DNA of 64,000 bases, taken from NCBI GenBank assembly GCA_964607765.1, contig CAZSNT010000033.1, positions 3,955 to 67,954 of the forward strand, written 5' to 3'. The DNA is from an uncultured Victivallales bacterium. GTDB lineage: Bacteria; Verrucomicrobiota; Lentisphaeria; Oligosphaerales; JABHEG01. Below, piece after piece: positions 12,397 through 58,115 of the stretch (positions are counted from its first letter, which is position 1; each line of letters begins with the position of its first letter). Under the pieces are notes generated by a model. That model worked only from the letters and a program-made list of their open reading frames with translations. It did no database searches and was not told the DNA's origin. The position numbers were made by a program, and so were the translations under genes.

Positions 12397-12496
12397 CACC
12401 ACACTCCTTGCTTTTTTAGACTTCTCTTTATTAGTACGTTAACGCCGTGTCTCTCGTTGTCAAGCGCTCCCTATCGTTCCGCCCGCACCTGGTGCT

Positions 12497-12754
12497 GTTC
12501 TCCGGACAACAGCCCGGCCATCGCATCATCTGATGCCCGGATAGCGGGTGGAACCGTTCCCCTCGTCGTACTTGTTTTCCGGACGGCCGCGCAACGGTGA
12601 CGGGCAGCCCGCACCCAGAGGCGTGAGCGGATCGTATTTGCCGCCACACTCGTTTTCCGGACACGCGCAGTTCGTGAACCGTTGTCGGAGGCCGGTGCAG
12701 GACGTCCGGAAAACACGGAGTGGGCGGGTTGCCGGCGGGGTCTGTTTTCCGGAC
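12497..12754. repeat. Motif array: three direct copies at a 77-78 bp period followed by one inverted pair
   Basis: The direct copies are GTTCTCCGGAC 12497-12507 (one mismatch) and GTTTTCCGGAC 12574-12584 and 12652-12662. They are followed by GTCCGGAAAAC 12704-12714 paired with GTTTTCCGGAC 12744-12754 (29-nt spacer). The array sits in a 668-bp divergent gap next to the truncated recombinase. Confidence 0.85.
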
Positions 12755-16021: not shown

Positions 16022-16376
16022 CATTGGTCGTTGCGCTGCACGCGTCATTGGTCACTGGTCATTGGCGGGGTCGCGGCGAAGTCAAGCAGCAGGTGAGCCG
16101 GAAAACGTGTCTGCAGCAGGTGGGCCGGCATGCGCGGAGGGGGCTGAGATCGCACCAATGTTCTCGTTCCCACGACTACGTGTTTTCCGGACATCCCAGG
16201 CACGAACGGGGCAGTCTATTGGGATAGCTTCGCGGCGACGGCCAATGACCGAAAACAGATGACTCCGCCGCGGTGTTTTCCGGACGTTCCAGGCGAGAAC
16301 GAGGCAGGCTGACTGACTGGCGGCGCGAGGGCGACCAATGACCGAGGAGCGGCGCCCACCCTGGTGTTTTCCGGAC
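16022..16376. repeat. Composite repeat region: three ~90-bp tandem units each ending in GTGTTTTCCGGAC, plus long-range inverted CATTGGTC / GACCAATG boxes
   Basis: GTTTTCCGGAC occurs at 16182-16192, 16275-16285 and 16366-16376, at spacings of 93 and 91 bp. Each is preceded by a CCAATG box (16155, 16241, 16333). Decayed left arms are GAGCCGGAAAAC at 16096 and GACCGAAAAC at 16247. Upstream, CATTGGTC is at 16022 and 16046 and GGTCATTGGC at 16057-16066. GGTCATTGGC is the exact reverse complement of GCCAATGACC 16241-16250, and GTCATTGGTC 16044-16053 is that of GACCAATGAC 16333-16342. The region lies in a convergent gap. Confidence 0.85.
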
Positions 16377-17352: not shown

Positions 17353-17769
17353 GTTATGAGTTCGACGGTCTCTGTTTGCTGCGTCCGATCAGGTGTACCC
17401 TAGTCACCCGGGAATGCTCCTGCAATGCTCGAATCCTGATTGGTGGAACAACGGGCAACGTAATCCATTTCGTTGTCAGCATGCCATGGCAGCGAACTTC
17501 GACACACAGACTGCCACGCCTACAGCACCGGACTCTCAAGAGAAGAGACTGAGAAATGGACCTGCATTCTGCTGCTCACAAACTACTAACAACACACTAG
17601 GTTGCTGAATGCCGGCCGTTGGCCGCTTCGAATCCCACACAGAAAGACGGTGATATTGCCCTGCTTGCGGCAAAAACGTAATCGTTTACTGTTCACGACT
17701 TGAACGTCGTGCAGACAGCGGTATTCTCTACAAACGAAACACTGAATCCGGACCGGACAGGAGAAGACG

Positions 17770-23469: not shown

Positions 23470-23470
23470 C

Positions 23471-26265: not shown

Positions 26266-26401
26266 GCCGGGTCTTCCGCCGGAAGGCTTGAAGAATGGGG
26301 GAGAACCAAAGGACGATCCTAACCATCGGCAAGCAAGAGAATTCGACAGGAATACGTGCTGTCAACTTTGACAGAGCCTGAACGGGGGACAGGAGATGAT
26401 C

Positions 26402-31921: not shown

Positions 31922-33400
31922 ATGACAACGAAACCCAACGTCCTTCTCCTTTTCTCCGATCAGCACCATGCGGATGCCATGAGTTGCGTCGGCACTACCA
32001 TTGTGCAGACGCCGACCTTCGACAGGCTGGCGGCCGAAGGAGTCCGGTTTGCCCGGGCCTACTGTCAGGATGCTATCTGCGTGCCTTCGCGGGTCTCCAT
32101 GATGAGCGGCCTCTACCCCCGAACAACCGGCTGCCTCGACAACCCCAACTGCCCGATCGACCCCGGGCAGTACGTCATGCTGCAGCGCCTCCTGCAGAAC
32201 AACGGGTATCGGACGGGATGCTTCGGCAAGCGGCATCTTCCGCACAGGAACGGCGGACAGATGTGCATGGGGTGGGACCGAAGCGCCACCACCATCAACC
32301 CGAAGCTCGACCCCTCCGACGAGAACTACTGGGACTGGCTGAAGGAGACCGGTCGCTACAAGGCATATTCGGAAACCGCCGGTGAGAACGTCCACAATTC
32401 CGACCTGTTCTGTCTCGTGTCGCACCTGGAGCCGGATGAAAGGGACGCTGCCTACACGGCTGACAAGGCCATCGAGTTCCTCCATGAGAACCAGGATCAG
32501 CCGTTCTTCTGCTGGGCATCGTTCCACGGTCCTCACCAGGCCTATGTGCCGCCGCAGAAGTGGATCGACATGTATCCCTACGACTCGATTCCACTGCCTG
32601 AGAACATCAGCGAACCGGTGGAGAATCTCCCGCCGGAGCTCCAGGGCTGGCGCCGCAACGAGAACCAACCGTGGAATCTGGGCACGGCCGCCAGGGACCA
32701 CGCGCTCTATCGGACCTACATCTCGCACTACTTCGCGCAGGTGACCGAGGTCGATCACTACGCCGGCCGGATCATCGACGAACTGGAGAGCCTGGGGCTG
32801 CGGGACAACACGATCGTCATCTACGCTTCCGACCATGGCGATTTCATGGGCCGGCACGGAATGGCCGAGAAATGCGCGCTTGGGCACAACGTGTACGAGG
32901 ACACGTTGCGCGTGCCGCTCATCGTCTCGTGGCCCGCCCGGTTTGACCGAGGCCGTGTCAGTGCGGAACTCGTGGAGTTGCTGGACGTTTACCCCACTTT
33001 GGTCGACTTGCTGGATCTCGAACTCCCGGCTGACACGCAGAGCCTGCAGGGGGTCTCGCTCAAGCCGATCCTCGAGGGCGACGACGCCCCGATCAGAGAA
33101 TACGCAGTCTCCGAGAACTGGTCGCAGGTCAGCATTGTCACAGACAAGTACAAGCTCGGGATCTGGGTCGATCCCGGCCCCATCGATCGGTACAGCATCC
33201 GCGATTTCCGGGGTCGGCATCCCGACATGCTCTTCGATCTGGAGGCCGACCCCCTCGAAGTCAGCAACCTGATCGACAGTCCCGCCCACGCAGATGTCCG
33301 GAAAACACTGTACGGCTACTACGAGCAGTGGTGCGAGAAAACGCCCGACACAGGCCGGACTGCCATCATCGATGCCTGGCTCCAGGGCCCAGCCGAGTAA
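31922..33400 (+). CDS. Cys-type sulfatase, no signal peptide
   Basis: It starts MTTKPNVLLLFSDQHH, carries the CVPSRVSMMSGLYP signature and contains VIYASDHGDF. It is a close paralogue of 23471..24967. Confidence 0.9.
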   Translation: MTTKPNVLLLFSDQHHADAMSCVGTTIVQTPTFDRLAAEGVRFARAYCQDAICVPSRVSMMSGLYPRTTGCLDNPNCPIDPGQYVMLQRLLQNNGYRTGCFGKRHLPHRNGGQMCMGWDRSATTINPKLDPSDENYWDWLKETGRYKAYSETAGENVHNSDLFCLVSHLEPDERDAAYTADKAIEFLHENQDQPFFCWASFHGPHQAYVPPQKWIDMYPYDSIPLPENISEPVENLPPELQGWRRNENQPWNLGTAARDHALYRTYISHYFAQVTEVDHYAGRIIDELESLGLRDNTIVIYASDHGDFMGRHGMAEKCALGHNVYEDTLRVPLIVSWPARFDRGRVSAELVELLDVYPTLVDLLDLELPADTQSLQGVSLKPILEGDDAPIREYAVSENWSQVSIVTDKYKLGIWVDPGPIDRYSIRDFRGRHPDMLFDLEADPLEVSNLIDSPAHADVRKTLYGYYEQWCEKTPDTGRTAIIDAWLQGPAE

Positions 33401-33410
33401 GGGAAACAGC

Positions 33411-34949
33411 ATGTGTGAGTCCGCTCGCTCGAACCACAGACCGAACCTGCTCTTCATCATGACCGACCAGCAGCGTTGGGACGCGTTGAGCCTGGCCGGC
33501 AATGCCATCCTCCACACGCCGAGCATGGACCGTATCGGGCGTGAAGGGGCGTACTTCGAGCTGTGCAACTCGCCCTGCCCGGTGTGCGGTCCGGCCCGCA
33601 GCAGCATGCTGGCAGGATGCACGGTGGAGAACACACAGGTACGCACGAACATGGATGCAGACGTGGCGGGCCGCATGCCCATGCCGAGCTATGACGAGAT
33701 CCTCGCCGACCAAGGCTACGCCACGGAGTATTACGGCAAATGGCACGCTCCCCTCGGCCGGGCTCTGAAGTACGACAACACCGTCACCCCTGCCGGCGTC
33801 GCCAGGTGGGAGCATGGCCCGGGCATGAGCCCCGACTACCAGGACTACCTCAACCAGCACATGCCGCGCACGAGCCTGTCGGGCATGACGGGTATGCAGG
33901 AGCAGACCCTCGATCTGCGCCCCTACCGCACGAACCCACTCGACACCCGCCACGGCCTCGAGCCGGGCGTGGACATGCCCGTGGTACAGCCCGACCAGCA
34001 CGGCGTGTCGACTGTCCCCGCTGAGCACACGATCACGGCTTACCAGGCGAAGTCGACTATGGACGCCCTCGAACGCCTCGCCTGCCAGGGTCGGCCCTTC
34101 TCGCTGCACTGCTCGTTCCACTGTCCCCACTCGCCGATCACACCGTCCGAACCGTATGCCTCCATGTACAAGGCCGAAGACATGCCGGTGCCAGCCAGTA
34201 TCGGCGATCCCATGGACAACTCGCCCTACTTCCACGAGAACGGGCGTTCGCGGTTCACGCAGTACGCCGATGCAACCCGGATCGGCCACATGATCGCCAA
34301 CTACTACGCATCCGTCAAGGAGATCGACGTTTGGGTGGGTAGGATTCTCGACAGACTGGATGAGCTGGGTTTGGCCGACAACACCATGGTCATCTTCACC
34401 TCGGACCACGGCGAAATGCTCGGCGCCCACGGCATGCGCGAGAAGAACATCTTCTACGAGGAATCCGTGCACGTTCCGTTGCTTGTCCGATTCCCGGGCC
34501 GTATCGCCGCCGGGACAGTTGTCCCCGCCCCCCTCTCGCAGATGGACCTGTTCGCCACCATCCTCGACTACCTCGACGCGGGCTCTCATGACTCCGATGG
34601 CGAAAGCCTGCGTCGATACATCGAGGCGGACGCGCCCGGTGACGATGCCTACGCAGTGAGCGAGTGGAACTGGCGCGGCCCGGTCCAGCCCAACCTGATG
34701 ATCCGCACCAAACGCTGGAAGTTCTTCTGCCCCAACCGCGCCGACTCCGAGGTCATGAACGTCCTCTACGACCTCGAAGCCGACCCCCACGAGATGAACA
34801 ACCTGCTCGGCAACAACCCCGAAGCAGAGCAATCGCGCCACCAGGCCGAGCACCTCAAGTCCCTGCTGGTCCAATGGCTGGAAAGAACTGCTTCGCCCCA
34901 TCTCGGTGAAGTGAGAAGCCGCGACGCTGTGGCCAAATCAAGGGACTGA
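33411..34949 (+). CDS. Cys-type sulfatase, no signal peptide
   Basis: ORF 33294..34949, trimmed to ATG 33411 (MCESARSNHRPNLLFIMTDQQRWD). The signature is CPVCGPARSSMLAG and it contains VIFTSDHGE. Confidence 0.9.
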   Translation: MCESARSNHRPNLLFIMTDQQRWDALSLAGNAILHTPSMDRIGREGAYFELCNSPCPVCGPARSSMLAGCTVENTQVRTNMDADVAGRMPMPSYDEILADQGYATEYYGKWHAPLGRALKYDNTVTPAGVARWEHGPGMSPDYQDYLNQHMPRTSLSGMTGMQEQTLDLRPYRTNPLDTRHGLEPGVDMPVVQPDQHGVSTVPAEHTITAYQAKSTMDALERLACQGRPFSLHCSFHCPHSPITPSEPYASMYKAEDMPVPASIGDPMDNSPYFHENGRSRFTQYADATRIGHMIANYYASVKEIDVWVGRILDRLDELGLADNTMVIFTSDHGEMLGAHGMREKNIFYEESVHVPLLVRFPGRIAAGTVVPAPLSQMDLFATILDYLDAGSHDSDGESLRRYIEADAPGDDAYAVSEWNWRGPVQPNLMIRTKRWKFFCPNRADSEVMNVLYDLEADPHEMNNLLGNNPEAEQSRHQAEHLKSLLVQWLERTASPHLGEVRSRDAVAKSRD

Positions 34950-35149: not shown

Positions 35150-36085
35150 ATGTCGCACAAGCAACAACCAGACTCCCTGGACTCCCCCGGCGACGCAGGA
35201 AGTGAAGGTATGGATTTCCGCAGCTTGGTGTCCGCCATCCGCCAGGTGCATGCGCACTGTACTGCGCAGGCCAGAGGCGCGGTGAACGTCTGTCTGACTC
35301 TTCGCAACTGGACTGTCGGTTGCTACATCCGTGAATACGAACAGAGAGGCGCTGACCGCGCGCAGTATGGTGCCAATCTGCTCGACAGGCTGGCCACGTC
35401 ACTTCATGGCGCGCTCGACAAGTGCTACACGGCAAGGTACTTGCGCATCTGTAGACGGTTGTACGAGGTGTACCCGCAAATTAGGAAATCGGTGATTTCC
35501 GAATTCAGCGCCAGGACGAAAGGGAAATCGGCGATTTCCAAATTGCCGGAGCATTCGGCAGACAGTGACTGCCAAATCGACACGTCTGCTCCGGTCTCGG
35601 TGTCTCTTCCCGCCGACAGACTGGTCAGGCATCTCTCCTTCACTGCGCTTGCGGAGCTCGTCAAAATCGACGCCCCCCTGAAGCGCGCATTCTACGAGGT
35701 CGAGTGCATCCGCGGCAACTGGTCGGTCCGCGCACTCAAGCGGCAGATCGCCACTCTCTACTTCGAGCGTTCCGGCTTGTCCACAGACAAAGAGAAGCTG
35801 GCAGCCATGACGCAGAGAGGCGCCGAAATCGAAGAGCCGAAACTCGCCATTCGCGACCCGTACGTCTTCGAGTTCCTCGGGCTTCGGCCCCAGGACGCCG
35901 TGGCGGAAAGCGACCTGGAGGCGGCGCTCGTCGAGAACTTGCGGGAGTTCCTGCTCGAGATGGGGCACGGTTTCTGCCTCGAGGCCCAGCAGAAGAGCAT
36001 TGTCATCGGCAACACTCGCGGCTTCGTCGATCTGGTGTCATGGAAGCGGAATGACGACTATGTCGACGTACGGCTGAGAGATTAG
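35150..36085 (+). pseudogene. DUF1016 / YhcG-like PD-(D/E)xK nuclease family gene, C-terminally truncated
   Basis: NVCLTLRNWTVGCYIREYEQRGADRAQYG, APLKRAFYEVECIRGNWSVRALKRQI, IRDPYVFEFLGL and LREFLLEMGHGFCLEAQQK match my recollection of DUF1016 proteins. The ORF stops at ...GFVDLVSWKRNDDYVDVRLRD, right after the first acidic motif and before the expected E-x-K core and C-terminal part. Confidence 0.65.
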
Positions 36086-49092: not shown

Positions 49093-50172
49093 ATGAGCCT
49101 ATCAATCCAGGAATTTGCGCGTCTTGCGAACACATCCGTAGCCACGGTCTCGCGGGCGCTTAACAACAAGCCGGGCGTGAGTGCCGCGCGGCGCCGGAGC
49201 ATCTGCGCCCTGGCCGAACGGCTCGGCTATCAGCCGAACCAGTTCGCCCGGAACCTGCAGGCGCAGCGCAGCAACACGCTCGGGTTCGTGTCCGCGAACC
49301 TGGACAACAAGACACATCAGGCGCTGTTGCGGCCGCTGGAAGCCGCTGCACGGGACCGTGGTTACGAGATGCTCGTGGCCGACTCGCGCCTGGACGCAGG
49401 TCGCGAGCGCACCAACATCGAGGCCTTGCTGCGCTTCAGGGTGGAAGGGTTCGTGCTGTGCCCGGTCTCTGATGACGACAGTGCGGCGGATACGGCTTTC
49501 ATCCGTGACCTGCAGCTGCGCCACGTCCCGTTTGTGGTGGCCGGGCGCGTGCCGGATCTCCTCCTCGACTCTGTTTCCAACGACGAAGAGGACGCGGCAC
49601 GGGCACTCACCCGACATCTGCTCGAGCTTGGGCACACGCGCTTCGGCGTCATCGACGGCGTCAGGACCAGCCGCGTCGGCACTGAACGACTCCAGGGAAT
49701 AGTCGAGGGACTCGGAGCCGCCGGGCTCCACTCACCCGGGGACACTTTGGGCACGCCGACACTCCGAACAACTCAGGCGCAGGAGCCGCAGGACGAAGTG
49801 GTTGGTGAGACCGTCCTTGAATGGCTCCGTCAGGATCTGCCGCCCACTGCGCTGGTCTGTCTCCAGAACCACCTCGCGATGCGGCTGCCACGGCCGCTCG
49901 GACGCGCCGGCCTCGTTATTCCGAGCGATGTCTCGCTGGCCACGTTCGACGACAGCGACTGGTGCCGGTTTGCCGACCCCTCGATCACCGCGGTCGCGCC
50001 GCGGCCGGAGATGCTGGCCCGCAAGCTGTTCCAGGCGCTGATGGCGCGCATCGACGATCCGGACGCAGCACCAGCCATTCATACCGTGCCCCAACGCCTG
50101 CATGTGCGTGAATCAACGGCAGCTGCCCCCGGCGTGCCGAAGGCTCAATCGGACGCTTTTTCCCGCCTGTAG
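49093..50172 (+). CDS. LacI-family transcriptional regulator
   Basis: The HTH is MSLSIQEFARLANTSVATVSRALNNKPGVSAARRRSICALAERLGYQPNQFARNL, followed by a periplasmic-binding-protein-like sugar-binding fold. It starts 20 bp after the previous gene. Confidence 0.9.
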   Translation: MSLSIQEFARLANTSVATVSRALNNKPGVSAARRRSICALAERLGYQPNQFARNLQAQRSNTLGFVSANLDNKTHQALLRPLEAAARDRGYEMLVADSRLDAGRERTNIEALLRFRVEGFVLCPVSDDDSAADTAFIRDLQLRHVPFVVAGRVPDLLLDSVSNDEEDAARALTRHLLELGHTRFGVIDGVRTSRVGTERLQGIVEGLGAAGLHSPGDTLGTPTLRTTQAQEPQDEVVGETVLEWLRQDLPPTALVCLQNHLAMRLPRPLGRAGLVIPSDVSLATFDDSDWCRFADPSITAVAPRPEMLARKLFQALMARIDDPDAAPAIHTVPQRLHVRESTAAAPGVPKAQSDAFSRL

Positions 50173-51005
50173 ACACGTACCCAATCGATCTCCATGCCGG
50201 CCGGATAATGGGCGGGATTGGTCGGCCCCGAGCCGTTCACCCACTTGCCGCCGATCTGCATGGAGAGGATGAAGTAGAACGGCTGATCGAACGGCCACTG
50301 TTTCTCGCCTTTCGCCGGTACACGCGGGTAGGTGTGCGTGGGCTTGCCGTTCACCGTGAAGACGATCTTGTCCGCGTCCCACTCGCAACCGTACGTGTTC
50401 CAGTCATCACGCTTGATCCCGGCCGTGCCGCCCTTCCGCGGCGTGTTCGTCTTGTCGACCTTCACCGTGTACTCGGAATGCACGGTCTGATAGACCTTGT
50501 GATCGAAATTCAGGTGCTCCATCAGGTCGATCTCGCCGTTGGCCGGCCAGCCCTTGTCTGCTCCCATCATCCAGAGCGCCGGCCAGGCGCCCTGCGCGCT
50601 CTTGAAACGGGTACGGATCTGGACCTTGCCGTACTGGAAAGCGAACTTCCCCCTGCTCGTCACACCAGCCGTCAGGAAGGGGGCCGGGTCGTCATCCTGC
50701 CTGTCGTTGGCAATCCCGCGGAGGTGCAGCACACTGTTGCCGATCTGCAGCAGACGCGGATCAGCCGACATGGTGTTCTTCCAGTCTGGTTTCCCGCGTG
50801 TACAGCGCGTCCACTTGGAGCCGTCCAGCTTGTCTCCGGCAAACTCATCCTGCCACACCAGCTCCCAACCGGGCAGGCCGGCATCCCCTGATGCAGCGGC
50901 CGTTGATTCACTGTTCGCCCCGGCGCTACTGCCGGCATGCACACCTGAAGTAAGGACCACCCAAACCGTCGACATGACAACAATCCTCTCCATTGCCCTG
51001 CTCAT
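50145..51005 (-). CDS. GH16 glycoside hydrolase, exported
   Basis: It contains WELVWQDEF, WPALWMMG and the catalytic ExDxxE motif in NGEIDLMEH, and ends near ...DWVRVYR. ATG 51005 overlaps the upstream stop (ATGA). Confidence 0.85.
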   Translation of the reverse strand: MSRAMERIVVMSTVWVVLTSGVHAGSSAGANSESTAAASGDAGLPGWELVWQDEFAGDKLDGSKWTRCTRGKPDWKNTMSADPRLLQIGNSVLHLRGIANDRQDDDPAPFLTAGVTSRGKFAFQYGKVQIRTRFKSAQGAWPALWMMGADKGWPANGEIDLMEHLNFDHKVYQTVHSEYTVKVDKTNTPRKGGTAGIKRDDWNTYGCEWDADKIVFTVNGKPTHTYPRVPAKGEKQWPFDQPFYFILSMQIGGKWVNGSGPTNPAHYPAGMEIDWVRVYRREKASD

Positions 51006-52879
51006 TGTGACTGCTCCTTCGCCAACACAAAGACCTCGGCCGGGGACAGACCGCGAGCCCAGACCGACACCTCGTCGAGCGCCCCGACGAACGGCTTGAC
51101 CTGGAGTGCATCAAACGCCTTCCGGCTGTAGCCCAACCCGCCGAAACTCAGACGCACGGACTGGTTGAACCGCAACGTGCGATCCGCTCCCTCCAGACGC
51201 GTCTGCACGGGGTTGCCGTCCACGTACAGTATGACCTCCGACAGCCGACAGCCATCGGCCGGCATCACGGCCGCAAGATGGTGCCACTCGTCGTCATTGA
51301 GTCCTGCGGAGTCCGCAACAGCCCTCTGAGTCTTCGATACCTGCACTTCGGGTTTGCCACCGTTCAGGTTCAGGTTCAGGAAACCGTCAAGTTTGCCGCC
51401 CCAAATCGACCCGGTGTTGACGAGGACGTGATTCTGCGTGGACTTGGTCTTGAGCCACAGTGCGTAGGACACCGCACGGTCGCTGTGGTGCGGGCCCATG
51501 GCAAACACGGCCATGCGGCTGTCTTTGCCGAACTGCGCCGCTCGGCCGCGTACGCCGTCAACCGGCACCAACCCGCTGCAGAGCGCGCTGTAGTGCTTGC
51601 CGAACGCCCCCGCGTTCGGCGACACGCGCGTGCACTTCACCCCACGCAGCATGACGCCCGTGCCATCCTTTGTCTTGCCGCGCAAGCCCACGATCGGGTG
51701 CTGTTGCAGCGGCATGTCCTGGTCGAACGCAAAGTGGTACAGCCTGGCCGACGGATCCAGAAAGGACAGCTCCCCCGTGGCTTCGAACGCGGTATTGGCA
51801 CCAGTCTTGTCGATAGTCAGCTGGCCGATCCGCTTGTATTCGCCGTCGGACGGCTTGCTGCCCGTCTGATTGTGGCAGACGATGTCAATCCGATCGTCGG
51901 CAACGTCGACTGTCAGGAAGTTATTGAAGACATTGCCGCGACTGACGAGCTGGATGAGATCAGACTCGGGATCCTTGGTAACCGTGTTGGCATGGACTTC
52001 GCCCGCGAAGTAAATATCGACGCGGTGTTTGCGCAGCGTCTGCCAGAATTCACAGCTCGTGTCGCCGTCCATCATCATGCCGCTGCTGTTGACCTTGCGC
52101 ACCGGATGGATGACCGGTAGATGCGCCTGCACGAAGATGTGCCTGACACCGGCATCTTTGCGCGCCTCGCCCAGCACGTGCTCGAGCCACTCCAGGTGTT
52201 TTCCGGCCACCGTGCCTGTGACTGCGCCTTGGTCACCGATGACCTTGCTCGGGCCCTCCTGATGGAAAACATCGACAGTGACGAACAACACGTTCTTGTG
52301 GCGGACTGCGTAAGAGGTGGACTCGTAGGGCGTTCCCAGCGGGCGTGACGGAGCGCTGCCGATCGGTGCCCTGTACAGGAAACGTCCACCGTCCGAAGCG
52401 GTGTTGAACTCCTTTGCGAAGGCGGCTCGGAACTGGGGCTGGCAGCGGGCGACTGCGGACCCGGCCGGCCACGGGTTGTCACCGAGTTCGTGGTCGCCGA
52501 CAGCCATCAGGAGCATCGGGTAGCCGCCTTTGCGGAAGGACCTCACCATCCCCGAGTAGCACAGATGCCCCGCCTTCAGGATCGACTGTTCGGGAGACAG
52601 GCCAGGCTCGAACTTCTTGATGAACTTCGGCGTATCCCAGTGCCCGCCGTTGCTGTCGCCCGGCAGCAGAATCAGATCGCCGCCGAACGTCTCGCGCAAC
52701 ATGGTGACGTTGGCGACATCCTGTTCGACCGCCGCCGCGAACCAGTCAGGGTTCTTCGCGCTCTGCGTGTATTTCTCCGCCGAGTGCCAGTCGGCCAATG
52801 CAATGAACCGCCACGAGTCTCCGGCCCAAGCGTGGACACTGAACAGCAGGGCCAAGAACCACGGCATCTGTCTCGTCAT
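51002..52879 (-). CDS. Exported calcineurin-like metallophosphoesterase fused to a C-terminal LamG/concanavalin-like domain
   Basis: ORF 51002..53236, trimmed to ATG 52879 (MTRQMPWFLALLFSVHAWAG signal). The phosphoesterase motifs are ALADWHS, LLPGDSNGGHWD, AVGDHELGD, VQAHLP and AGEVHAN. The C-terminus ...DEWHHLAAV...LYVDGNPV...FVGALDEVSVWARGLSPAEV is LamG-like. Confidence 0.7.
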   Translation of the reverse strand: MTRQMPWFLALLFSVHAWAGDSWRFIALADWHSAEKYTQSAKNPDWFAAAVEQDVANVTMLRETFGGDLILLPGDSNGGHWDTPKFIKKFEPGLSPEQSILKAGHLCYSGMVRSFRKGGYPMLLMAVGDHELGDNPWPAGSAVARCQPQFRAAFAKEFNTASDGGRFLYRAPIGSAPSRPLGTPYESTSYAVRHKNVLFVTVDVFHQEGPSKVIGDQGAVTGTVAGKHLEWLEHVLGEARKDAGVRHIFVQAHLPVIHPVRKVNSSGMMMDGDTSCEFWQTLRKHRVDIYFAGEVHANTVTKDPESDLIQLVSRGNVFNNFLTVDVADDRIDIVCHNQTGSKPSDGEYKRIGQLTIDKTGANTAFEATGELSFLDPSARLYHFAFDQDMPLQQHPIVGLRGKTKDGTGVMLRGVKCTRVSPNAGAFGKHYSALCSGLVPVDGVRGRAAQFGKDSRMAVFAMGPHHSDRAVSYALWLKTKSTQNHVLVNTGSIWGGKLDGFLNLNLNGGKPEVQVSKTQRAVADSAGLNDDEWHHLAAVMPADGCRLSEVILYVDGNPVQTRLEGADRTLRFNQSVRLSFGGLGYSRKAFDALQVKPFVGALDEVSVWARGLSPAEVFVLAKEQSQ

Positions 52880-52919
52880 TCTCACGGAGCTCTCCTTGTT
52901 GGTCGCTGGGGTTCTCCCC

Positions 52920-54776
52920 TCATCTCCCCGATCGACTGCCCGCCTCTGCCGCGCGGAGTTCATACATGCACGCGCCAATCCGACGGGCGGCCTCGACCGT
53001 TTCCCGGTACGGCGTATCGCAAATGTCCACAAAGCCGATCTGGTAGTTCTCGCCGTCACCCCGCCCCGTGACGCTTTGCTCCCGGTACTGGAACCAGTGG
53101 GCCCCGACAATATGCGGGTGCTTGAGCGCCTGAGCGAGGTAGTGTTCGTAGGCGTAGCCGCGTTGCCGTTGATTGGCCACGCCCCGCAGCCCGGTGTGCA
53201 GCATGCCGCGGTCGAGCGCCCCAAAGTGGAATTCACCGATGATCAGCGGCACGTCAACGCCCTCGAGCATGCGCAGATCGGACGGCGAGAAGCGGTACCG
53301 GTTGACGCTGAGAACATCGCAATACCTGACTGCGGCCGCGACTATATGCCGTTTGTTCCCGTAAGGCTGGTCGTGGCCGTGCAGGCGGCTGCCCAGGTAG
53401 AGCTTGTGCGGCGCGACCTTCCTGACTTCTTCCCGGACCGTTCGGTAGTAGAGATCAGCATCCATCTTGCCGCGCCACTTGATTTCGTTGTCGACAAAAT
53501 AGCCGATGCACCAGGGATCTTCCGCGCTCCTGCCCTTCTCCGCGAGCAGGCGTTTGTGAAGGAGCTCTCTCAGCTTCTGCGGACTCCGCAAGAGCCCTTC
53601 CAGCGTGTCTGAACCCCAGCCCGCGTAGTGGATGGCCACGACATAGGGTGTCTTTCTGAGTTCGCAGATCGCCGGGTCGGACCAGTTGGCGATGGTGTTC
53701 ATTCCCCAGCTTCGGAGGCGCTGATGGGCCGCTTCGCTCGCTTCCGTTTCCCACTGTTCACCGTACTTCACGGAGAGATTGGCTTTGGCGAAGTCCACGT
53801 GCCCACGCTCGTGGAACGACGCAGGGATGCGCTCGAAATAGTGCTCCCGTTCGTGAACGCGCGTTCCCGCCCGGAAGTGAACGCCGGTGACGCCGTGCGA
53901 CCAGAACAAGCAGCCTTCGGGATCGACCAGCCACCACATGCCGTCACGCTTCTCGGTGCGGAAGTGCCCGGTCGCGGCCAGCTTCGGTCCCCCCAGCCAC
54001 CCGCCGTACCGGCTTCGGTCACCGGGGCCCGGATGCCGCTGCCGGTCCTCCTCCTCCCGGCGACGAGCCGCTGCCAGGTCGGACCTGGCAGTGATTTTTC
54101 CGGGCCAAGACGCGTGCTTGAACTGCCCGAATGCATCCACAAACGGGAAGAAAGCCTGCTCGGCTTCAGCGGGAAGAGGCGCGTACCTGCCCACGCCGCG
54201 AACACCCGCAATCTGGACGCTCTGTCCCACGGAGACGCCGTCCAGGTCACGGATGAGCAACTCTCTCACACGCGCCGCGTCGAACTCCGTCCAGTGTGAC
54301 AAGTGTCCGCCGGGCAGGCCGCGCATGCCGGTGAACATGTCTTTGCGCTGATCGGGGACCTCTTTCCGCAGGACATGGATCAGCATCGTGCAGGTCTCGC
54401 CGGCTGGCACATGCAGGAAACTGTTGACCCACTTGCTGTCCCCCAGACTCCCGAGAAGCGTGACGGGTTCGGCACCGACATTGCGGATGTCGACCGCAAC
54501 AGCCACGCAGGCGCTCGCGTCCCAGGCCCCATCGGCCGGCCGGATTCCGACCCCGCCCCCCGGCTCCCTGAACGTCACCCTCAGTTCACTGTCGCTGGCG
54601 CACTCCGCGCCAAACGCCCTGACCCGGCATCCGTCCTTCCCCGGCTGCAGCAGCGTCCGGCTCGAAGCCCGGGCGCCGCAGAGCCCGACGTGCTGCCCCC
54701 CCGCACATTCGGCCATCGCCGCACACATGAGCAGTCCTCTCACTAGCAGCCATTGTACTTCCATCCGTCTCAGCAT
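52920..54776 (-). CDS. Exported clan GH-A (TIM-barrel) glycoside hydrolase with an N-terminal beta-sandwich region; family uncertain (GH50-like by memory)
   Basis: The start is probably ATG 54776 or 54764 (MLRRMEVQWLLVRGLLMCAAMA). FVDNEIKW (an NE acid/base-type motif) and LIIGEFHFGA (a nucleophile-type motif) have the spacing expected of clan GH-A. AHWFQYREQSVTGRGDGENYQIGFVD is the tail block. Confidence 0.55.
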   Translation of the reverse strand: MLRRMEVQWLLVRGLLMCAAMAECAGGQHVGLCGARASSRTLLQPGKDGCRVRAFGAECASDSELRVTFREPGGGVGIRPADGAWDASACVAVAVDIRNVGAEPVTLLGSLGDSKWVNSFLHVPAGETCTMLIHVLRKEVPDQRKDMFTGMRGLPGGHLSHWTEFDAARVRELLIRDLDGVSVGQSVQIAGVRGVGRYAPLPAEAEQAFFPFVDAFGQFKHASWPGKITARSDLAAARRREEEDRQRHPGPGDRSRYGGWLGGPKLAATGHFRTEKRDGMWWLVDPEGCLFWSHGVTGVHFRAGTRVHEREHYFERIPASFHERGHVDFAKANLSVKYGEQWETEASEAAHQRLRSWGMNTIANWSDPAICELRKTPYVVAIHYAGWGSDTLEGLLRSPQKLRELLHKRLLAEKGRSAEDPWCIGYFVDNEIKWRGKMDADLYYRTVREEVRKVAPHKLYLGSRLHGHDQPYGNKRHIVAAAVRYCDVLSVNRYRFSPSDLRMLEGVDVPLIIGEFHFGALDRGMLHTGLRGVANQRQRGYAYEHYLAQALKHPHIVGAHWFQYREQSVTGRGDGENYQIGFVDICDTPYRETVEAARRIGACMYELRAAEAGSRSGR

Positions 54777-54893
54777 ACGTCCGATTCCCGTCTGATTCGA
54801 GCACGGTCGAGCAAGAGGCAGACGAACTGCCGACACCTACAATAGCAGGTGCGACGCCCGTTGTCAGCGCAACCGAGCGAGCACGCACCCCGT

Positions 54894-55114
54894 GACCGGA
54901 AAACACCACCAACACCACGACGACACCACCGACGACCGGAAAACACCCACCGACGACCGGAAAACAGCCACCCACGACCGGAAAACGCCGCCACGCAGCC
55001 CAGCCCCCGTGCCGGACGAGGATCGGCCTGCCGGCGCAGCTGTTTTCCGGACATCTCGCCCCTGGCGCAGCTGTTTTCCGGACATCTCGACCCTGTCGCC
55101 GCTGTTTTCCGGAC
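54894..55114. repeat. Motif array: four direct GACCGGAAAAC copies facing three direct GTTTTCCGGAC copies
   Basis: GACCGGAAAAC is at 54894, 54934, 54955 and 54976 (spacing 40, 21, 21 bp), each followed by a CCACC-like tract. GTTTTCCGGAC is at 55042, 55073 and 55104 within a 31-bp tandem unit GCAGCTGTTTTCCGGACATCTCG. The array lies in the divergent gap between starts 54776 (-) and 55234 (+). Confidence 0.9.
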
Positions 55115-55233
55115 GTGCGACGGGGCCCCGGCATACACCCCTCAAGGGAGAGCGGCACTTCCCAGACCAACATCTTGCGCTTCGATTCCCGCTGACTATC
55201 TTGCCGGAGTGGAACGAACCAAGGAGGACGACG

Positions 55234-56550
55234 ATGATCACCCGGTTGCTCTGCACGTCCCTGGCGCTCGCCGCGGCACACGCCGCCGTTGCACAGGACC
55301 AGGAGAAGCCCGCCATGTCACTGTTGCGGAACGGTGTATTCGAGGAAATCGACGCAACGAACGCGCCGGCGGGATGGAAGGTCAGCGATTGGAGTCCCCA
55401 GAAGACCCGGCGCCCGATCAAAGCGGTTGTGGCGAGCGATGGTGCAGGCGCGGGCAAGGCAGCGGTCAGGATTGTCTCCGAGAATGACGGGGGGAATCTG
55501 GTGCTGTGGCAGGACATCAGGCGTCCCGGCGTGGGTACGTATGTTCTCACGGTTGCGTGCAAGCCGGATATCGGGGCTAGCGCCTACGCGTCCCTGGTGG
55601 CGCTCAAAGGCAGGGAGAACCTGGTCTACGAGAACACACGACGTGTCACAGATGCCGACGCGTGGACCGTCCTTGAGCTACGTGCCACAGCGCCGCCCGA
55701 GACCCAGCTCCTGCGTGTTATCCTGCGTACTGACCGTGGCGCGTCCTTCGCCAACGCCGTGGTGACACTGCACGGCGCTGACGGCAGCGCGATCAACACG
55801 CGCCGTGAGCCGAGCAGCGGCACCGCGCTGAAGCAGGCGCGCAGTGACCTGATGTATGATCCGGACGCCGACGCTGCTCGGAAAGCGGCCATGTCGCCTG
55901 AGGAACTTGCTTGGGAGAAGCTGCTGGAGAAGTGTCTGGGCGGCTTCTACCTGCCCCGCTACAAGCTGGCAAAGGAGCGTGGCAGCACGACGGCTTGGGA
56001 CTTTGTCGAAGACGACCCCGCGCTGCCCCGTGTGCTTCTCATCGGGGACTCCATCAGCCGCGGCTACACGGTCGCGACGCGCAAAGCGCTCGCCGGCAAG
56101 GTCAACGTGCACCGGGCGCCCGAGAACTGCGGACCGACCAGCAACGGCCTCCGCAAGCTGGACATCTGGCTCGGTGACGGCAAGTGGGACCTGATCCACT
56201 TCAACTTCGGTATCCACGACCAGCGCAGCAAGCCGGAGGACTACGCGAAACGGCTTGAGAGCATCGTCGAGCGACTGCAGAAGACCGAAGCAAAGCTCGT
56301 GTTCGCCACGTCGACCCCCATCCCGAAAGGTGCGGAGAAGTACCGGCATGGCGCCTGTGCGGAGCTCAACACGGCCGCCGGAGCCATCATGGCGCGATAC
56401 GGTGTTCCTCTCAACGATCTGTACGCGCTCATGCTCCCGCTGCTGAGCGAGTACCAGAACGCGGGCGACTGCCACTTCAGAGGCGAAGGGTACGAGGTCA
56501 TGGGCAGGCAAGTCGCCAGGAGCATCCTCGAGGCGCTCGAGCTCGAGTGA
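55234..56550 (+). CDS. Exported SGNH/GDSL-type esterase with an N-terminal CBM-like beta-sandwich domain
   Basis: ATG 55234 lies 5 nt after AAGGAGGA. The signal is MITRLLCTSLALAAAHAAVA. SGNH block I is VLLIGDSISRGY, followed by FNFGIHD and GDCHF (DxxH). Confidence 0.75.
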   Translation: MITRLLCTSLALAAAHAAVAQDQEKPAMSLLRNGVFEEIDATNAPAGWKVSDWSPQKTRRPIKAVVASDGAGAGKAAVRIVSENDGGNLVLWQDIRRPGVGTYVLTVACKPDIGASAYASLVALKGRENLVYENTRRVTDADAWTVLELRATAPPETQLLRVILRTDRGASFANAVVTLHGADGSAINTRREPSSGTALKQARSDLMYDPDADAARKAAMSPEELAWEKLLEKCLGGFYLPRYKLAKERGSTTAWDFVEDDPALPRVLLIGDSISRGYTVATRKALAGKVNVHRAPENCGPTSNGLRKLDIWLGDGKWDLIHFNFGIHDQRSKPEDYAKRLESIVERLQKTEAKLVFATSTPIPKGAEKYRHGACAELNTAAGAIMARYGVPLNDLYALMLPLLSEYQNAGDCHFRGEGYEVMGRQVARSILEALELE

Positions 56551-56831
56551 TTCACGGTGCGGACGGGGCGCGTAGCTGATCGCGGGTCAGCCGCAGCGCA
56601 GCGCCGTTCCGGGGTGGCCGCCTGACAATTGTCGTTCCTTCCCTTGCATCCTCGGTCACTCTCCCGTATTTTCAGTTCCGTAGGCGGAAACAACTCCCTG
56701 TTGCCCCAACACAGCGGTGCGGCAGGCGTACCTGGGACGTTCGTCACGCGGTCTGTCCTGGATGCAGTTCGGGATTTGTGAGGGGGATGAGCCCCCGGTG
56801 AGAGCGCGCGGGACGGAAGCAGGAGAGGAAT

Positions 56832-58115
56832 ATGAGGAGCTACAGGTCACTGATGTGGCTGGTCTGTGGAGTGTTGCTCTGTGCCGGCCTTACCGGGCCG
56901 GAAGCGTTGGCCAAATCAACCGCGCAGGGAATGGCCGAGGGCGCCACCGTACTGGCCACGATGCGGCTCAAGGAGGATCCGAAGAACGAGGGCGGGAAGG
57001 CGCTCCTGCGTTTCGCGCTCTTTGTCGATCCGGAGAACGAGGGAGCGCTGCTGCTGCAGGCGAAGCTGGAGCGGAACCACGACCTGAAAGATGTCGCACT
57101 TGCTGACGGCGGCCGGAAGTATGTCGGCAACCTGAAGCGAATCATCCGCAAGACGCGCTCCACCTCCAAGCGACTGCTGCTTTACAAGGTGATCGAGACA
57201 ATCCTCCCCGACGACACTGAAGCCCTCTTGGAGCTGACCCGGGCCAAGAACAAGGGCATCGACACGAGCTTCGATTCCCTGTACAGCTCCATCAGCGGCG
57301 GGAGCAAGCCTGAGCCCGACAGCGAAAAGCCGAAAGAGAAGCCTGATACGACGGGCAAGCCGGACCCGCGCAAGGTGCTGAAGGACGTTACCCTCTCGAG
57401 CAGTTACCTGTCGACCAGCAGCCCGGTTGATACGATCAACTATCTGAGCCGCGCGGTGCATCCACACGGCATCACAGTCGCCATCGCCGCCAGCAAGCTC
57501 CCCGTCCGCACGTACTTTGACAGCTCGACCGGCGCCCCGCGGTATTACAGCAACGTCAACCTGCCGCCTCAACCCACGGTGTACCGCAGCGCGTCGAGCA
57601 CGGCAGAGGTTTCGGCTGAAGAGATGCTGAGACGGGTGTGCCTGACGTTTCAGCTGGGGTACAAGTTCGAGCCGGGCAAGGTCGTGATCACAGACCCCGA
57701 CGACGCCGGCGCCGTCGAGACGATCGGGCTGGTGCGCAAAGCGACGGCACTGTCTTCCGCCTTCAGCGAAGAAGCGTCGAAGAGCGTACGCGAGTACCGG
57801 GGCAAGCTCATCGCCATAAGCGGTGACATATCGGGCATCGGCAAGAGCATGTCGACTCCCTACGTGCATTTGGAGAAAGACAGAGTGCGGGTGACTTTTG
57901 CCCGCAGCGTGGCCAAAGACAAGATCGCTCAGCTCAAGGCCGCGTACGAGGACTTCAATGATCGTGACGGCGCATCTTCCTACAGCTCCAGCTATGAGCG
58001 TTGCCTGCAGTTCTTCGGCTCGGCCCGGTGCAAAGGACTGTCGTCCGGGCGCGTTGTGCTGACAGACTGCGAGGACTTCTCGTGGCACACGATGTATCGC
58101 CGCAAGAGTGATTGA
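56832..58115 (+). CDS. Hypothetical exported protein
   Basis: The ATG follows GGAGAGGAAT. The signal is MRSYRSLMWLVCGVLLCAGLTGPEALA. No motif was recognised, and it has a low-complexity PEPDSEKPKEKPDTTGKPDP linker. Confidence 0.5.
   Translation: MRSYRSLMWLVCGVLLCAGLTGPEALAKSTAQGMAEGATVLATMRLKEDPKNEGGKALLRFALFVDPENEGALLLQAKLERNHDLKDVALADGGRKYVGNLKRIIRKTRSTSKRLLLYKVIETILPDDTEALLELTRAKNKGIDTSFDSLYSSISGGSKPEPDSEKPKEKPDTTGKPDPRKVLKDVTLSSSYLSTSSPVDTINYLSRAVHPHGITVAIAASKLPVRTYFDSSTGAPRYYSNVNLPPQPTVYRSASSTAEVSAEEMLRRVCLTFQLGYKFEPGKVVITDPDDAGAVETIGLVRKATALSSAFSEEASKSVREYRGKLIAISGDISGIGKSMSTPYVHLEKDRVRVTFARSVAKDKIAQLKAAYEDFNDRDGASSYSSSYERCLQFFGSARCKGLSSGRVVLTDCEDFSWHTMYRRKSD

What the first reader, a model, noticed from the sequence alone, without database searches (positions are those of the whole stretch)
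54894..55114. Divergent promoter gap holds 4 direct half-sites facing 3 inverted half-sites of the abundant motif
Four CGACCGGAAAAC copies lie at spacings of 40, 21 and 21 bp, each followed by a CCACC-rich tract. After about 55 bp come three copies of the 31-bp tandem unit GCAGCTGTTTTCCGGACATCTCG in the opposite orientation. The region is a large segmented palindrome able to form alternative hairpins or cruciforms. It could also load a protein cooperatively at roughly 2- and 3-helical-turn spacing. It separates the GH-A / phosphoesterase-LamG / GH16 string (minus strand) from the SGNH esterase gene (plus strand). It may therefore act as a shared regulatory or insulating element.
Basis: seen in the sequence. 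Interest (0 to 1): 0.6.

Follow-up and report, generated by a model that had tools for sequence, protein, structure and literature searches.

The report
Clustered copies of a dispersed 12-base repeat
The seven facing "half-sites" are real, but they are one local cluster of a 12-13-base word, (T)G(T/A)CCGGAAAAC(R), that is scattered singly, in inverted pairs and in tandem arrays through this uncultured Lentisphaerae-type genome and a few other lineages, so it looks like a REP/BIME-style dispersed repeat with an unknown binding partner, not a switch dedicated to the two flanking genes.

Summary
Four direct copies (period 21) face three inverted copies (period 31) in the 457-bp divergent gap 54777-55233. 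The gap is identical in an independent assembly. The core CCGGAAAAC occurs 37 times in the window against 0.5 expected, and the only conserved information is t-G-(T/a)-CCGGAAAAC-(A/G).

The word is not specific to this gap. It also forms clusters between same-direction genes, in another divergent gap and in a convergent gap, and about 11 copies lie inside genes, written in rare codons. The same word forms alternating arrays of up to 8-11 copies in a Lentisphaeria MAG, next to ilvC, glmM and recD2 as well as CAZyme genes, often at contig ends. It also forms REP-like hairpin families in other metagenome lineages. It is absent from about 118 kb of other relatives.

Within arrays only the word is conserved. 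Spacers drift, but in one MAG their length is held. There is no Rfam hit, no terminator, no fixed promoter partner and no plasmid or phage match.

Best reading, confidence about 0.5: a lineage-restricted dispersed repeat with REP/BIME/REPIN-like architecture, whose word is a recognition site for an unidentified protein. This cluster was built by tandem duplication. A global-regulator reading and an uptake-sequence-like reading remain open. Interest is moderate.

The parts
54893..54905 (+). Motif copy 1, direct: TGACCGGAAAACA
54933..54945 (+). Motif copy 2, direct: CGACCGGAAAACA, in a 21-nt tandem unit
54954..54966 (+). Motif copy 3, direct: CGACCGGAAAACA, in a 21-nt tandem unit
54975..54987 (+). 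Motif copy 4, direct: CGACCGGAAAACG, in a 21-nt tandem unit
54894..54986 (+). Tandem array of period 21 nt, 4.6 units. One unit (about 54914-54933) has lost the motif. The spacers are C/A-rich (CCACC).
   Evidence: TRF
54988..55039 (.). Non-repeated central spacer between the two opposed arrays (55 nt between the 11-mers)
55033..55125 (+). Tandem array of period 31 nt, three units. Units 1 and 2 are 97% identical. Unit 3 has diverged except for GCTGTTTTCCGGAC.
55040..55052 (-). Motif copy 5, inverted: + strand reads TGTTTTCCGGACA
55071..55083 (-). Motif copy 6, inverted: + strand reads TGTTTTCCGGACA
55102..55114 (-). Motif copy 7, inverted: + strand reads TGTTTTCCGGACG
54839..54867 (-). Sigma-70-like promoter candidate for the GH gene: CTGACA-17-TATTGT with a TG extension. 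It lies immediately gene-proximal to the array.
   Evidence: consensus match only
55175..55202 (+). Weak promoter-like TTGCGC-N16-TATCTT upstream of the esterase gene's ribosome-binding site (aaggagg, 55221-55227) and its ATG at 55234
   Evidence: Read directly from the sequence; it falls below the scan threshold
52920..54776 (-). Flanking gene: secreted beta-agarase-like glycoside hydrolase of 618 aa with signal peptide MLRRMEVQWLL...
55234..56550 (+). Flanking gene: secreted GDSL/SGNH esterase of 438 aa
5678..5912 (.). Sister cluster: three inverted doublets of the same word with loops of 20, 21 and 26 nt, lying between two minus-strand genes
12572..12754 (.). Sister cluster: four copies in another divergent gap, next to a truncated recombinase-like ORF
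16096..16376 (.). Sister cluster: four copies in a convergent gap. Three lie in units of about 92 nt in which only the word is conserved.

Best explanation
The seven copies are one local cluster of a lineage-restricted, genome-dispersed short repeat. Its only conserved part is the 12-13-nt word (T)G(T/A)CCGGAAAAC(A/G).

The family has the architecture of REP/BIME/REPIN-type elements: singlets, inverted doublets with a preferred spacing, and tandem clusters that break assemblies. The word behaves as a sequence-specific recognition site, most probably for a protein encoded only in the lineages that carry it.

At this locus the cluster was built by tandem duplication of a 21-nt unit and a 31-nt unit. 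After that, only the word was kept.

Shown by the data: the word's over-representation, its sharpness, its dispersal, its conservation against drifting spacers, its patchy lineage distribution, and the duplication origin of this cluster.

Inferred: a protein binds the word. When occupied, the seven sites would form a multivalent nucleoprotein block filling the roughly 240 bp between the two divergent core promoters. That block could influence or insulate the promoters as a side effect, not as a dedicated operator.
For: - Over-representation: 37 copies against 0.5 expected.
- Sharpness: the logo carries information only at positions -3 to +9, and nothing else is conserved within +/-60 nt. Exact cores number 37, while one-mismatch cores number 21 against 13 expected. 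This is as sharp as Pseudomonas REPs, which show 1053 exact against 196 one-off copies (PMC3116915).
- Dispersal within the window: clusters lie in tandem, divergent and convergent gaps, and there are singles as well.
- Other genomes: the same word pair recurs in 14 contigs of Lentisphaeria MAG Zod_Metabat.847 and 2 contigs of Lentisphaerae SI037_bin151. The Zod arrays alternate in orientation, reach 8-11 copies, and often sit at contig ends. They flank housekeeping genes (ilvC/glmM, recD2) as well as CAZyme genes.
- Lineage-specific hairpin families built on the same 11-mer turn up in metagenomes: six TARA contigs and three soil contigs.
- Preferred doublet spacing: in Zod the converging gap is 28-31 nt in 16 of 20 cases and the diverging gap is 16-20 nt in 17 of 20. 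TARA copies all have a 26-nt gap.
- Only the word is conserved. It is invariant in the target's 21-nt and 31-nt units and in the units of about 92 nt, while the rest drifts. Zod spacers compared between loci are near saturation, 0.495 identity against a null of 0.461.
- Patchy distribution: there are 0 copies in about 95 kb of ilvC loci from six other Lentisphaerae-like genomes and 0 in a 22.6-kb locus around a GH homologue.
- TRF shows a recent duplication, with the 31-nt units matching at 94%.
Against: - About 30% of copies (11 of 37) lie inside genes. They were created by substitution and use rare codons: GTT 0.11, ACA 0.14, GGA 0.10, TTT 0.11. Classical REPs are about 99% extragenic (PMC3116915), and transposition cannot make in-frame copies.
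- The 13-mer has no palindromic core of its own, unlike REPs.
- No RAYT/HUH transposase was seen in any held sequence. The screen was crude and only fragments of these genomes are held.
- Gene ends facing the clusters are about 2:1 in favour of 5' ends (my tally). This is more typical of regulatory sites than of REPs.
- The binding protein is hypothetical.
Confidence: 0.5

Rival explanations
1. Operator or UAS arrays of a global transcription factor or nucleoid-associated protein. The word is the monomer site of an abundant regulator. In this gap, seven phased sites load it cooperatively and co-regulate or insulate the GH operon and the esterase gene. This is essentially the first reader's view, widened to a genome-wide regulon.
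For: - The clusters favour gaps that contain gene starts: 3 of 4 divergent gaps, 5 of about 15 tandem gaps and 1 of 5 convergent gaps in the window. The overall tally is about 27 five-prime ends against 13 three-prime ends.
- The array sits exactly between the two core promoters.
- Local spacing is 21 and 31 nt, about 2 and 3 helical turns.
- In the Zod MAG spacing is fixed while spacer sequence is unconstrained.
- Complementarity does not extend beyond the word, so it is the double-stranded word and not a hairpin that matters.
- Six of the 11 in-gene copies lie within 350 nt upstream of the next gene start.
Against: - Binding sites for transcription factors are normally degenerate. Here there is almost no excess of one-mismatch variants.
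- Arrays of 8-11 exact sites that break assemblies are unusual for operators.
- Four copies lie in a convergent gap.
- Orientation relative to the downstream gene is inconsistent.
- Large promoter gaps lack the word, for example 17352-17770 and 56550-56832.
- The word is absent from related genomes that carry similar genes.
- Helical phasing is not general across arrays.
Confidence: 0.25
2. A DNA-uptake-sequence-like or other genome-wide 'self' word, analogous to DUS/USS or Chi. The word would accumulate by molecular drive or selection wherever it is tolerated, both in genes and between them. Inverted pairs and arrays would arise secondarily in non-coding DNA.
For: - Density is 0.58 per kb in the window, close to what I recall for DUS/USS (about 0.8-0.9 per kb).
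- Both strands are used about equally, 17 against 20 copies.
- The word is very sharp.
- 11 of 37 copies lie inside unrelated genes in several frames and are written with rare codons. Six encode V-F-R-T as GTT TTC CGG ACA. The position in the sulfatase D-x-x-x-D-P-G-E motif indicates substitution, not insertion (my knowledge of the family).
- Inverted intergenic pairs occur, as with Neisseria DUS.
- The word is shared by several related lineages and absent from others.
Against: - Tandem arrays of 4-11 copies are not a DUS/USS trait.
- Only about 30% of copies are in coding DNA, against 47-70% for USS (PMC2346458).
- In the TARA and SI037 lineages the word occurs only inside hairpin or cluster elements, with no singles in about 57 kb and 16 kb respectively.
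- In the Zod MAG most in-gene cores lack the G(T/A) extension.
- In-gene copies in the window are regionally clumped, six within 23.1-27.1 kb.
- No competence genes or receptor could be examined.
Confidence: 0.12
3. A structure-based element. The opposed arrays would extrude as a cruciform or fold in a transcript into alternative hairpins that attenuate, terminate or stabilise RNA.
For: The fold is better than shuffles on both strands: z = -4.2 for DNA, and z = -3.0 and -5.0 for RNA. In the TARA and soil families the stems extend 5-14 nt beyond the word.
Against: - In the window and the Zod MAG, complementarity ends with the word, extending 0-3 nt.
- The innermost arms are 55 nt apart.
- There is no T-run terminator and no Rfam match even at E <= 5.
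- Stems are invariant, so no covariation exists to test.
- Single copies and direct repeats cannot pair.
- The promoter candidates lie outside the array and point away from it, so the array is probably not transcribed from them.
Confidence: 0.05

Closest known systems
REP / BIME elements and REPINs (REP doublets forming hairpins; E. coli, Pseudomonas; PMC3116915)
   Same: Both are short, highly over-represented and very sharp words. Both occur as singlets, as inverted doublets with a characteristic spacing, and as tandem clusters of up to about 12 copies. Both are mostly extragenic, lineage-specific and prone to breaking assemblies. In both, the spacer is less conserved than the repeat.
   Different: The word here is only 12-13 nt and has no palindromic core of its own. 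About 30% of copies are inside genes, against about 1% for REPs. Clusters are common in divergent promoter gaps. The same word is shared by lineages of 56-70% GC whose spacers and spacings differ. No RAYT gene has been seen, though this was not properly testable.
Neisseria DUS and Pasteurellaceae USS (DNA uptake sequences; PMC2346458)
   Same: Both are 9-12-nt words at roughly 0.5-1 copy per kb. Both use the two strands equally and are very sharp. Both occur inside genes in several frames as well as between genes. Intergenic copies often form inverted pairs. Related taxa share the word.
   Different: Tandem arrays of 4-11 copies are not known for DUS/USS. The coding fraction is lower here. Some lineages carry the word only inside hairpin elements. 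No link to competence has been established.
Neisseria intergenic mosaic elements (NIMEs: RS units bounded by 20-bp dRS3 repeats). Comparison is from my own knowledge and was not tested here.
   Same: Both are intergenic arrays in which a short invariant repeat alternates with variable intervening segments, at many loci in the genome.
   Different: dRS3 is a 20-bp repeat with terminal inverted ends and serves as a phage/IS integration target. The intervening units are 50-150 bp. No such integration is evident here.
Plasmid iterons and multi-site operator arrays (for example phased activator sites)
   Same: Direct repeats at a period of about 21 bp face inverted copies, lie between divergent promoters, and have a spacing compatible with binding on one face of the helix.
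   Different: There is no replication or partition gene nearby. The same word is dispersed genome-wide, including in coding DNA and a convergent gap. The phasing is not maintained in other arrays.

Membership tests
REP/REPIN | A short sequence that is strongly over-represented, with few degenerate variants | tested here: met
   37 exact cores against 0.46 expected; 21 one-mismatch cores against 13.2 expected. SBW25 for comparison: 1053 exact against about 196 one-off.
REP/REPIN | Almost exclusively extragenic | tested here: not met
   About 11 of 37 copies are inside genes, against 14 of 1067 in SBW25. Non-coding density is still roughly 20-fold higher than coding density.
REP/REPIN | Each REP contains an imperfect palindromic core | tested here: not met
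   The 13-mer TGTCCGGAAAACA is not self-complementary apart from TCCGGA. The palindrome GTCCGGAC is not enriched, 1 copy against 2.9 expected.
REP/REPIN | Predominantly inverted doublets with a characteristic spacing, able to form hairpins | tested here: met
   Across all lineages, neighbouring copies are 44 converging, 28 diverging and 10 direct. Converging gaps are 28-31 nt in Zod and 26 nt in TARA. In the window itself the gaps are broader: 20, 21, 26, 29 and 55 nt.
REP/REPIN | Higher-order tandem clusters of near-identical units | tested here: met
   The target has 21-nt and 31-nt arrays. L020 has 68-nt units with 8 copies and L008 has 11 copies.
REP/REPIN | A cognate RAYT (Y1/HUH transposase) gene flanked by the repeats | not testable with these tools
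   Only fragments of the genomes are held. A crude HUH...Y regex screen of all held DNA found none.
DNA uptake sequence (DUS/USS) | A word at about 1 copy per kb on both strands, both in and between genes, imposed at the DNA level | tested here: met
   0.58 per kb, with 17 copies on the + strand and 20 on the - strand. In-gene copies occur in several frames and use rare codons.
DNA uptake sequence (DUS/USS) | Roughly even, non-arrayed distribution over the genome, with about half or more of the copies in coding DNA | tested here: not met
   21 of 37 copies are in four arrays or clusters, and 30% are in coding DNA against 47-70% for USS. This rests on a single 64-kb window.
DNA uptake sequence (DUS/USS) | Uptake specificity, meaning a competence machinery with a sequence-specific receptor | not testable with these tools
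   There are no competence genes in the window, and the whole genome is not available.
LacI-type or other local operator of the flanking genes | A dyad-symmetric site of 14-20 bp confined to the regulated promoters | tested here: not met
   The word is asymmetric. It occurs in a convergent gap, inside genes and next to unrelated genes in other MAGs. A LacI gene is present at 49093-50172, but no matching palindrome is present.
Sigma-factor (for example ECF) promoter element | A fixed-distance partner box and a consistent orientation toward the gene | tested here: not met
   No conserved column lies within +/-60 nt outside the word, and orientation is mixed.
Intrinsic terminator or known RNA family | A GC-rich hairpin followed by a T-run, or a match to an Rfam covariance model | tested here: not met
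   0 terminator-like sites. 0 Rfam matches at gathering threshold in the window and 0 at E <= 5 in the gap.
Plasmid iterons, transposon ends or phage att sites | Association with a rep, transposase or integrase gene, or similarity to mobile-element DNA | tested here: not met
   There are no significant plasmid or phage matches and no word pair in viral contigs. The only recombinase-like ORF (11569-12402) is truncated and lies 42 kb away.

The most novel reading that the evidence does not exclude
The word could be a genome-wide recognition code of a new kind in the PVC superphylum. One form would be a DNA-uptake-type sequence, which would be the first outside the Neisseriaceae and Pasteurellaceae. 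Another would be the site of a lineage-specific chromosome-organising or silencing protein. Either way its presence would be favoured even inside genes at the cost of rare codons, and the intergenic arrays such as this one would act as high-avidity landing pads.
Probability: 0.15. Interest if true: 0.8.

Novelty: new variant of a known kind. Interest (0 to 1): 0.45.

Why it matters
Dispersed short repeats are well described in Proteobacteria but hardly at all in Lentisphaerae and the wider PVC group. Here a single invariant 12-13-nt word is shared by several uncultured lineages with different GC content and element architecture, and it is absent from others. That pattern implies a conserved but patchily distributed recognition protein that is still unknown.

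There are practical consequences. The arrays fragment MAG assemblies. ORF callers can be misled, because one ATG 'start' at 33294 is part of the word. Motif-discovery pipelines could mistake the word for a regulon signal in polysaccharide-utilisation loci.

If the in-gene, rare-codon copies reflect a genome-wide drive or selection, this would be an uptake-sequence-like phenomenon in a new phylum.

Tried and rejected
- Known RNA families and terminators: Rfam gave nothing for the window or the gap, and no terminator was found.
- ECF or sigma promoter element: rejected, because there is no partner box within +/-60 nt and orientation is mixed.
- LacI operator for the nearby regulator: rejected, because the word is asymmetric and dispersed.
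- Integron attC: the arms do not fit the RYYYAAC/GTTRRRY core sites, and pairs of 44-50 nt are too short. This rests on my knowledge of the family.
- CRISPR: rejected, because the 'spacers' within an array are near-identical.
- Tn7/Mu-like transposon ends (4 sites facing 3): rejected, because the conserved part is only 12-13 nt and occurs everywhere.
- Link to the neighbouring recombinase-like ORF at 11569-12402: the ORF is truncated and lacks the catalytic C-terminus.
- A-tract curvature or helical phasing as a general property: rejected, because spacings in other arrays are not multiples of 10.5.
- Literature search for the word, and for Lentisphaerae together with REP or DUS: only primer coincidences or nothing.
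- Plasmid, phage and viral similarity: none.
- RAYT/HUH screen: none found, but the screen was crude.
- Orthologous-gap comparison: the nearest homologues of the flanking GH are 63% identical or less and are not syntenic. Three look-ups returned no DNA. The one locus retrieved has no copy of the word.
- The palindromic sub-word GTCCGGAC is not enriched.
- Genome and metagenome scans also returned unrelated chance or terminator hairpins containing the same 11-mer, for example aaaaaagctcctGTCCGGAAAAC...GTTTTCCGGACaggagctttttt in contigs of about 50% GC. These were set aside.

Full report
**1. The observation.**
The core CCGGAAAAC lies on the + strand at 54896, 54936, 54957 and 54978. It lies on the - strand at 55042, 55073 and 55104.

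The repeat finder groups the first four copies as a 21-nt family with spacings of 40, 21 and 21. It groups the last three as a 31-nt family with spacings of 31 and 31. TRF scores them as period 21 x 4.6 copies (54894-54986) and period 31 x 2.6 copies (55033-55114, 94% matches). The 40-nt interval is therefore two 21-nt units, one of which has lost the word.

Fifty-five nucleotides separate the two opposed arrays. The 457-nt gap, and the whole 16,248-nt Logan contig from SRR8146442, are identical to the window. The structure is therefore not an artefact of one assembly.

**2. The surroundings.**
GC3 frame analysis and Pfam searches show that the window is a sulfated-glycan degradation island. 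It holds at least 12 sulfatases, two GH32 genes, and GH29, GH38, GH16, GH2 and ThuA/HEAT proteins, plus a LacI-family regulator at 49093-50172.

The gap runs from 54777 to 55233. On the minus strand it is bounded by a secreted beta-agarase-like GH (52920-54776). That gene has no Pfam hit, and its homologues are annotated as beta-agarase or carry PF17992/PF02449. On the plus strand it is bounded by a secreted GDSL/SGNH esterase (55234-56550).

A sigma-70-like candidate promoter, CTGACA-17-TATTGT, lies at 54867-54839 on the minus strand. It sits about 20 nt from the first motif copy. On the other side I read a weak TTGCGC-N16-TATCTT at 55175-55202, followed by a ribosome-binding site and the ATG. 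The array therefore fills the space between the two core promoters.

**3. The word.**
CCGGAAAAC occurs 37 times in 64 kb against 0.5 expected. Aligning all copies gives t-G-(T/a)-CCGGAAAAC-(A/G), and no other informative column lies within +/-60 nt.

The word is very sharp. There are 37 exact cores, but only 21 one-mismatch cores against 13 expected. Of the 39 occurrences of GGAAAAC in the window, 37 are inside the full word.

The word is asymmetric. The palindrome obtained by deleting AAA (GTCCGGAC) is not enriched.

**4. Where the copies are.**
Besides the target, the window holds these clusters:
- three inverted doublets at 5680-5910, between two minus-strand genes;
- four copies at 12574-12752, in a divergent gap;
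- four copies at 16098-16374, in a convergent gap;
- single copies in or at the edges of several short intergenic gaps.

About 11 copies lie inside genes. They fall in unrelated proteins and in different frames. Six encode V-F-R-T as GTT TTC CGG ACA. The codons used are rare in this genome: GTT 0.11, ACA 0.14, GGA 0.10, TTT 0.11. One copy replaces the x-x-x residues of the sulfatase D-x-x-x-D-P-G-E motif without changing its length, which indicates substitution and not insertion (my knowledge of the family). A DNA-level pressure for the word therefore exists even in coding DNA.

Copy density is roughly 20-fold higher in non-coding DNA. Several large gaps have no copy, for example 17352-17770 and 56550-56832.

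**5. Other genomes.**
Scanning one genome per species for GTCCGGAAAAC-N10-40-GTTTTCCGGAC returned 25 loci. Fourteen come from a single Lentisphaeria MAG (Zod_Metabat.847, GC about 0.70) and two from Lentisphaerae SI037_bin151. The rest are singletons in unrelated taxa. The window's own genome is not in that set.

In the Zod MAG the word forms alternating arrays of up to 8-11 copies, frequently at contig ends. This is the signature of a multi-copy repeat. Those arrays flank a ROK regulator, a GH95, sulfatases and esterases. They also flank ilvC/glmM, recD2 and an efflux gene. The family is therefore not tied to glycan genes.

The metagenome scan added lineage-specific hairpin families built on the same 11-mer. 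Six TARA contigs share TGCCAGTTTGAG-GTCCGGAAAAC-GTCCAC-N14-GTGGAC-GTTTTCCGGAC. Three soil contigs carry a longer nested hairpin.

By contrast, about 95 kb of ilvC loci from six other Lentisphaerae-like genomes contain no copy at all, and neither does a 22.6-kb locus around a GH homologue. The word is lineage-restricted and patchy. It is absent from plasmid, phage and viral collections.

**6. What is conserved.**
Within the target's tandem units the word columns are invariant while the rest drifts. In the units of about 92 nt in the convergent gap, only the word survives.

In the Zod MAG the gap between converging copies is 28-31 nt in 16 of 20 cases. The gap between diverging copies is 16-20 nt in 17 of 20. 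Yet spacers from different loci are almost saturated, with 0.495 identity against a null of 0.461 and only 8% of pairs above 60% identity. Other lineages have their own preferred gaps: 26 nt in TARA, 29-31 nt in soil, and 20-29 nt in the window.

Complementarity does not extend beyond the 11-mer in window and Zod pairs (0-3 nt). It does extend in the TARA and soil families (5-14 nt).

What persists is therefore the word itself, plus a spacing in some lineages. This argues for sequence-specific recognition and against whole-element copying or hairpin stability alone.

**7. Structure-based readings.**
Folding 54880-55130 gives nested pairing of the motif copies with z = -4.2 for DNA and z = -3.0 and -5.0 for RNA. 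This is the expected result of placing inverted copies of a 12-mer in a sequence. There is no T-run terminator and no Rfam family. The innermost arms are 55 nt apart. I rate a cruciform or RNA-switch mechanism as unlikely.

**8. Comparison with known systems.**
REPs and REPINs in Pseudomonas fluorescens SBW25 (PMC3116915) share several traits with this family:
- comparable sharpness, with 1053 exact against about 196 one-off copies;
- a dominance of inverted doublets (61% of REPs are doublets, and 93% of doublets are inverted) at characteristic spacings;
- tandem clusters of up to 12 copies.

They differ in that REPs have a palindromic core, only 14 of 1067 overlap genes, and they are associated with RAYT genes. 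Here two of those defining features are not met and the RAYT association could not be tested. A crude screen for it was negative.

Uptake sequences share the density, the strand symmetry, the sharpness, the in-gene copies and the inverted intergenic pairs (PMC2346458). They do not form arrays, however. In the TARA and SI037 lineages the word occurs only inside hairpin or cluster elements.

A global-regulator reading fits the roughly 2:1 bias toward gene starts and the location between promoters. It fits poorly with the lack of degeneracy, the assembly-breaking arrays, the convergent-gap cluster and the inconsistent orientation.

**9. Verdict.**
The finding is real, and its description is accurate. 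Its interpretation as a shared regulatory or insulating element of this particular gene pair is only partly supported.

The best-supported account, at confidence about 0.5, is a local cluster of a lineage-restricted dispersed repeat with REP/BIME/REPIN-like architecture. The cluster was generated by tandem duplication. Its invariant 12-13-nt word is a recognition site for an as yet unidentified protein, and any effect on the two promoters is a by-product of occupancy.

The in-gene, rare-codon copies remain unexplained by that model. They keep an uptake-sequence-like or genome-wide binding-code reading alive at about 0.15. I classify the finding as a new variant of a known kind, of moderate interest.

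Noticed in passing
window 23128-27080 (also 15861, 33298, 41070, 52198, 63743): In-gene copies of the word are written with rare codons. Six encode V-F-R-T as GTT TTC CGG ACA in unrelated proteins. Two coincide with the sulfatase F-S-G and L-T-G-K signature. Six copies crowd into 4 kb.
   Followed up: partly
window 33294-33306: The ATG that opens the longest ORF of the sulfatase gene 33294-34949 is part of the word (ATGTCCGGAAAAC) and overlaps the previous gene by about 100 nt. It is probably a false start, as with Neisseria ORFs that 'start' with the DUS.
   Followed up: no
window 11569-12402 (minus strand): A tyrosine-recombinase-like ORF matches only the N-terminal SAM-like domain (PF13495) and lacks the catalytic C-terminus. 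It is probably a remnant. It lies next to the motif cluster at 12574-12752.
   Followed up: partly
window 35150-36085: A DUF1016/YhcG PDDEXK-nuclease gene is embedded in a run of sulfatase genes, which is an odd passenger in a catabolic island.
   Followed up: no
L032, L042, L044, L049, L053, L062 (TARA_B110001450 contigs): A separate REP-like family of about 65 nt, TGCCAGTTTGAG-GTCCGGAAAAC-GTCCAC-N14-GTGGAC-GTTTTCCGGAC-GCCWG..., has conserved flanks and stems and variable loops. It lies mostly at contig ends and uses the same 11-mer.
   Followed up: partly
L037, L038, L040, L050, L054, L057, L060 (contigs of about 50% GC): An identical long terminator-like hairpin, aaaaaagctcctGTCCGGAAAACagaaaaaactGTTTTCCGGACaggagctttttt, recurs in many samples. 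It contains the same 11-mer but is clearly a different element, with A and T runs on both sides.
   Followed up: no
L018 2444-2577 and L019 25-76: The two contigs end and begin with the same array unit, so they probably abut. The array broke the assembly and is longer than what either contig shows.
   Followed up: no
window 51002-53236 versus 52920-54776: The longest ORF of the LamG protein overlaps the upstream GH gene by about 316 nt. The gene call on the Logan contig gives 625 aa instead of 744 aa, so the true start is further downstream and the genes do not overlap.
   Followed up: partly
window 54886-54995 and 5689-5790: On the strand where the word reads CCGGAAAAC, it is often followed by C/A-rich CCACC tracts (RCCACC...). 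The Zod MAG has poly-C or poly-G tracts in the same place. This weak strand-asymmetric compositional feature of the spacers is unexplained.
   Followed up: no
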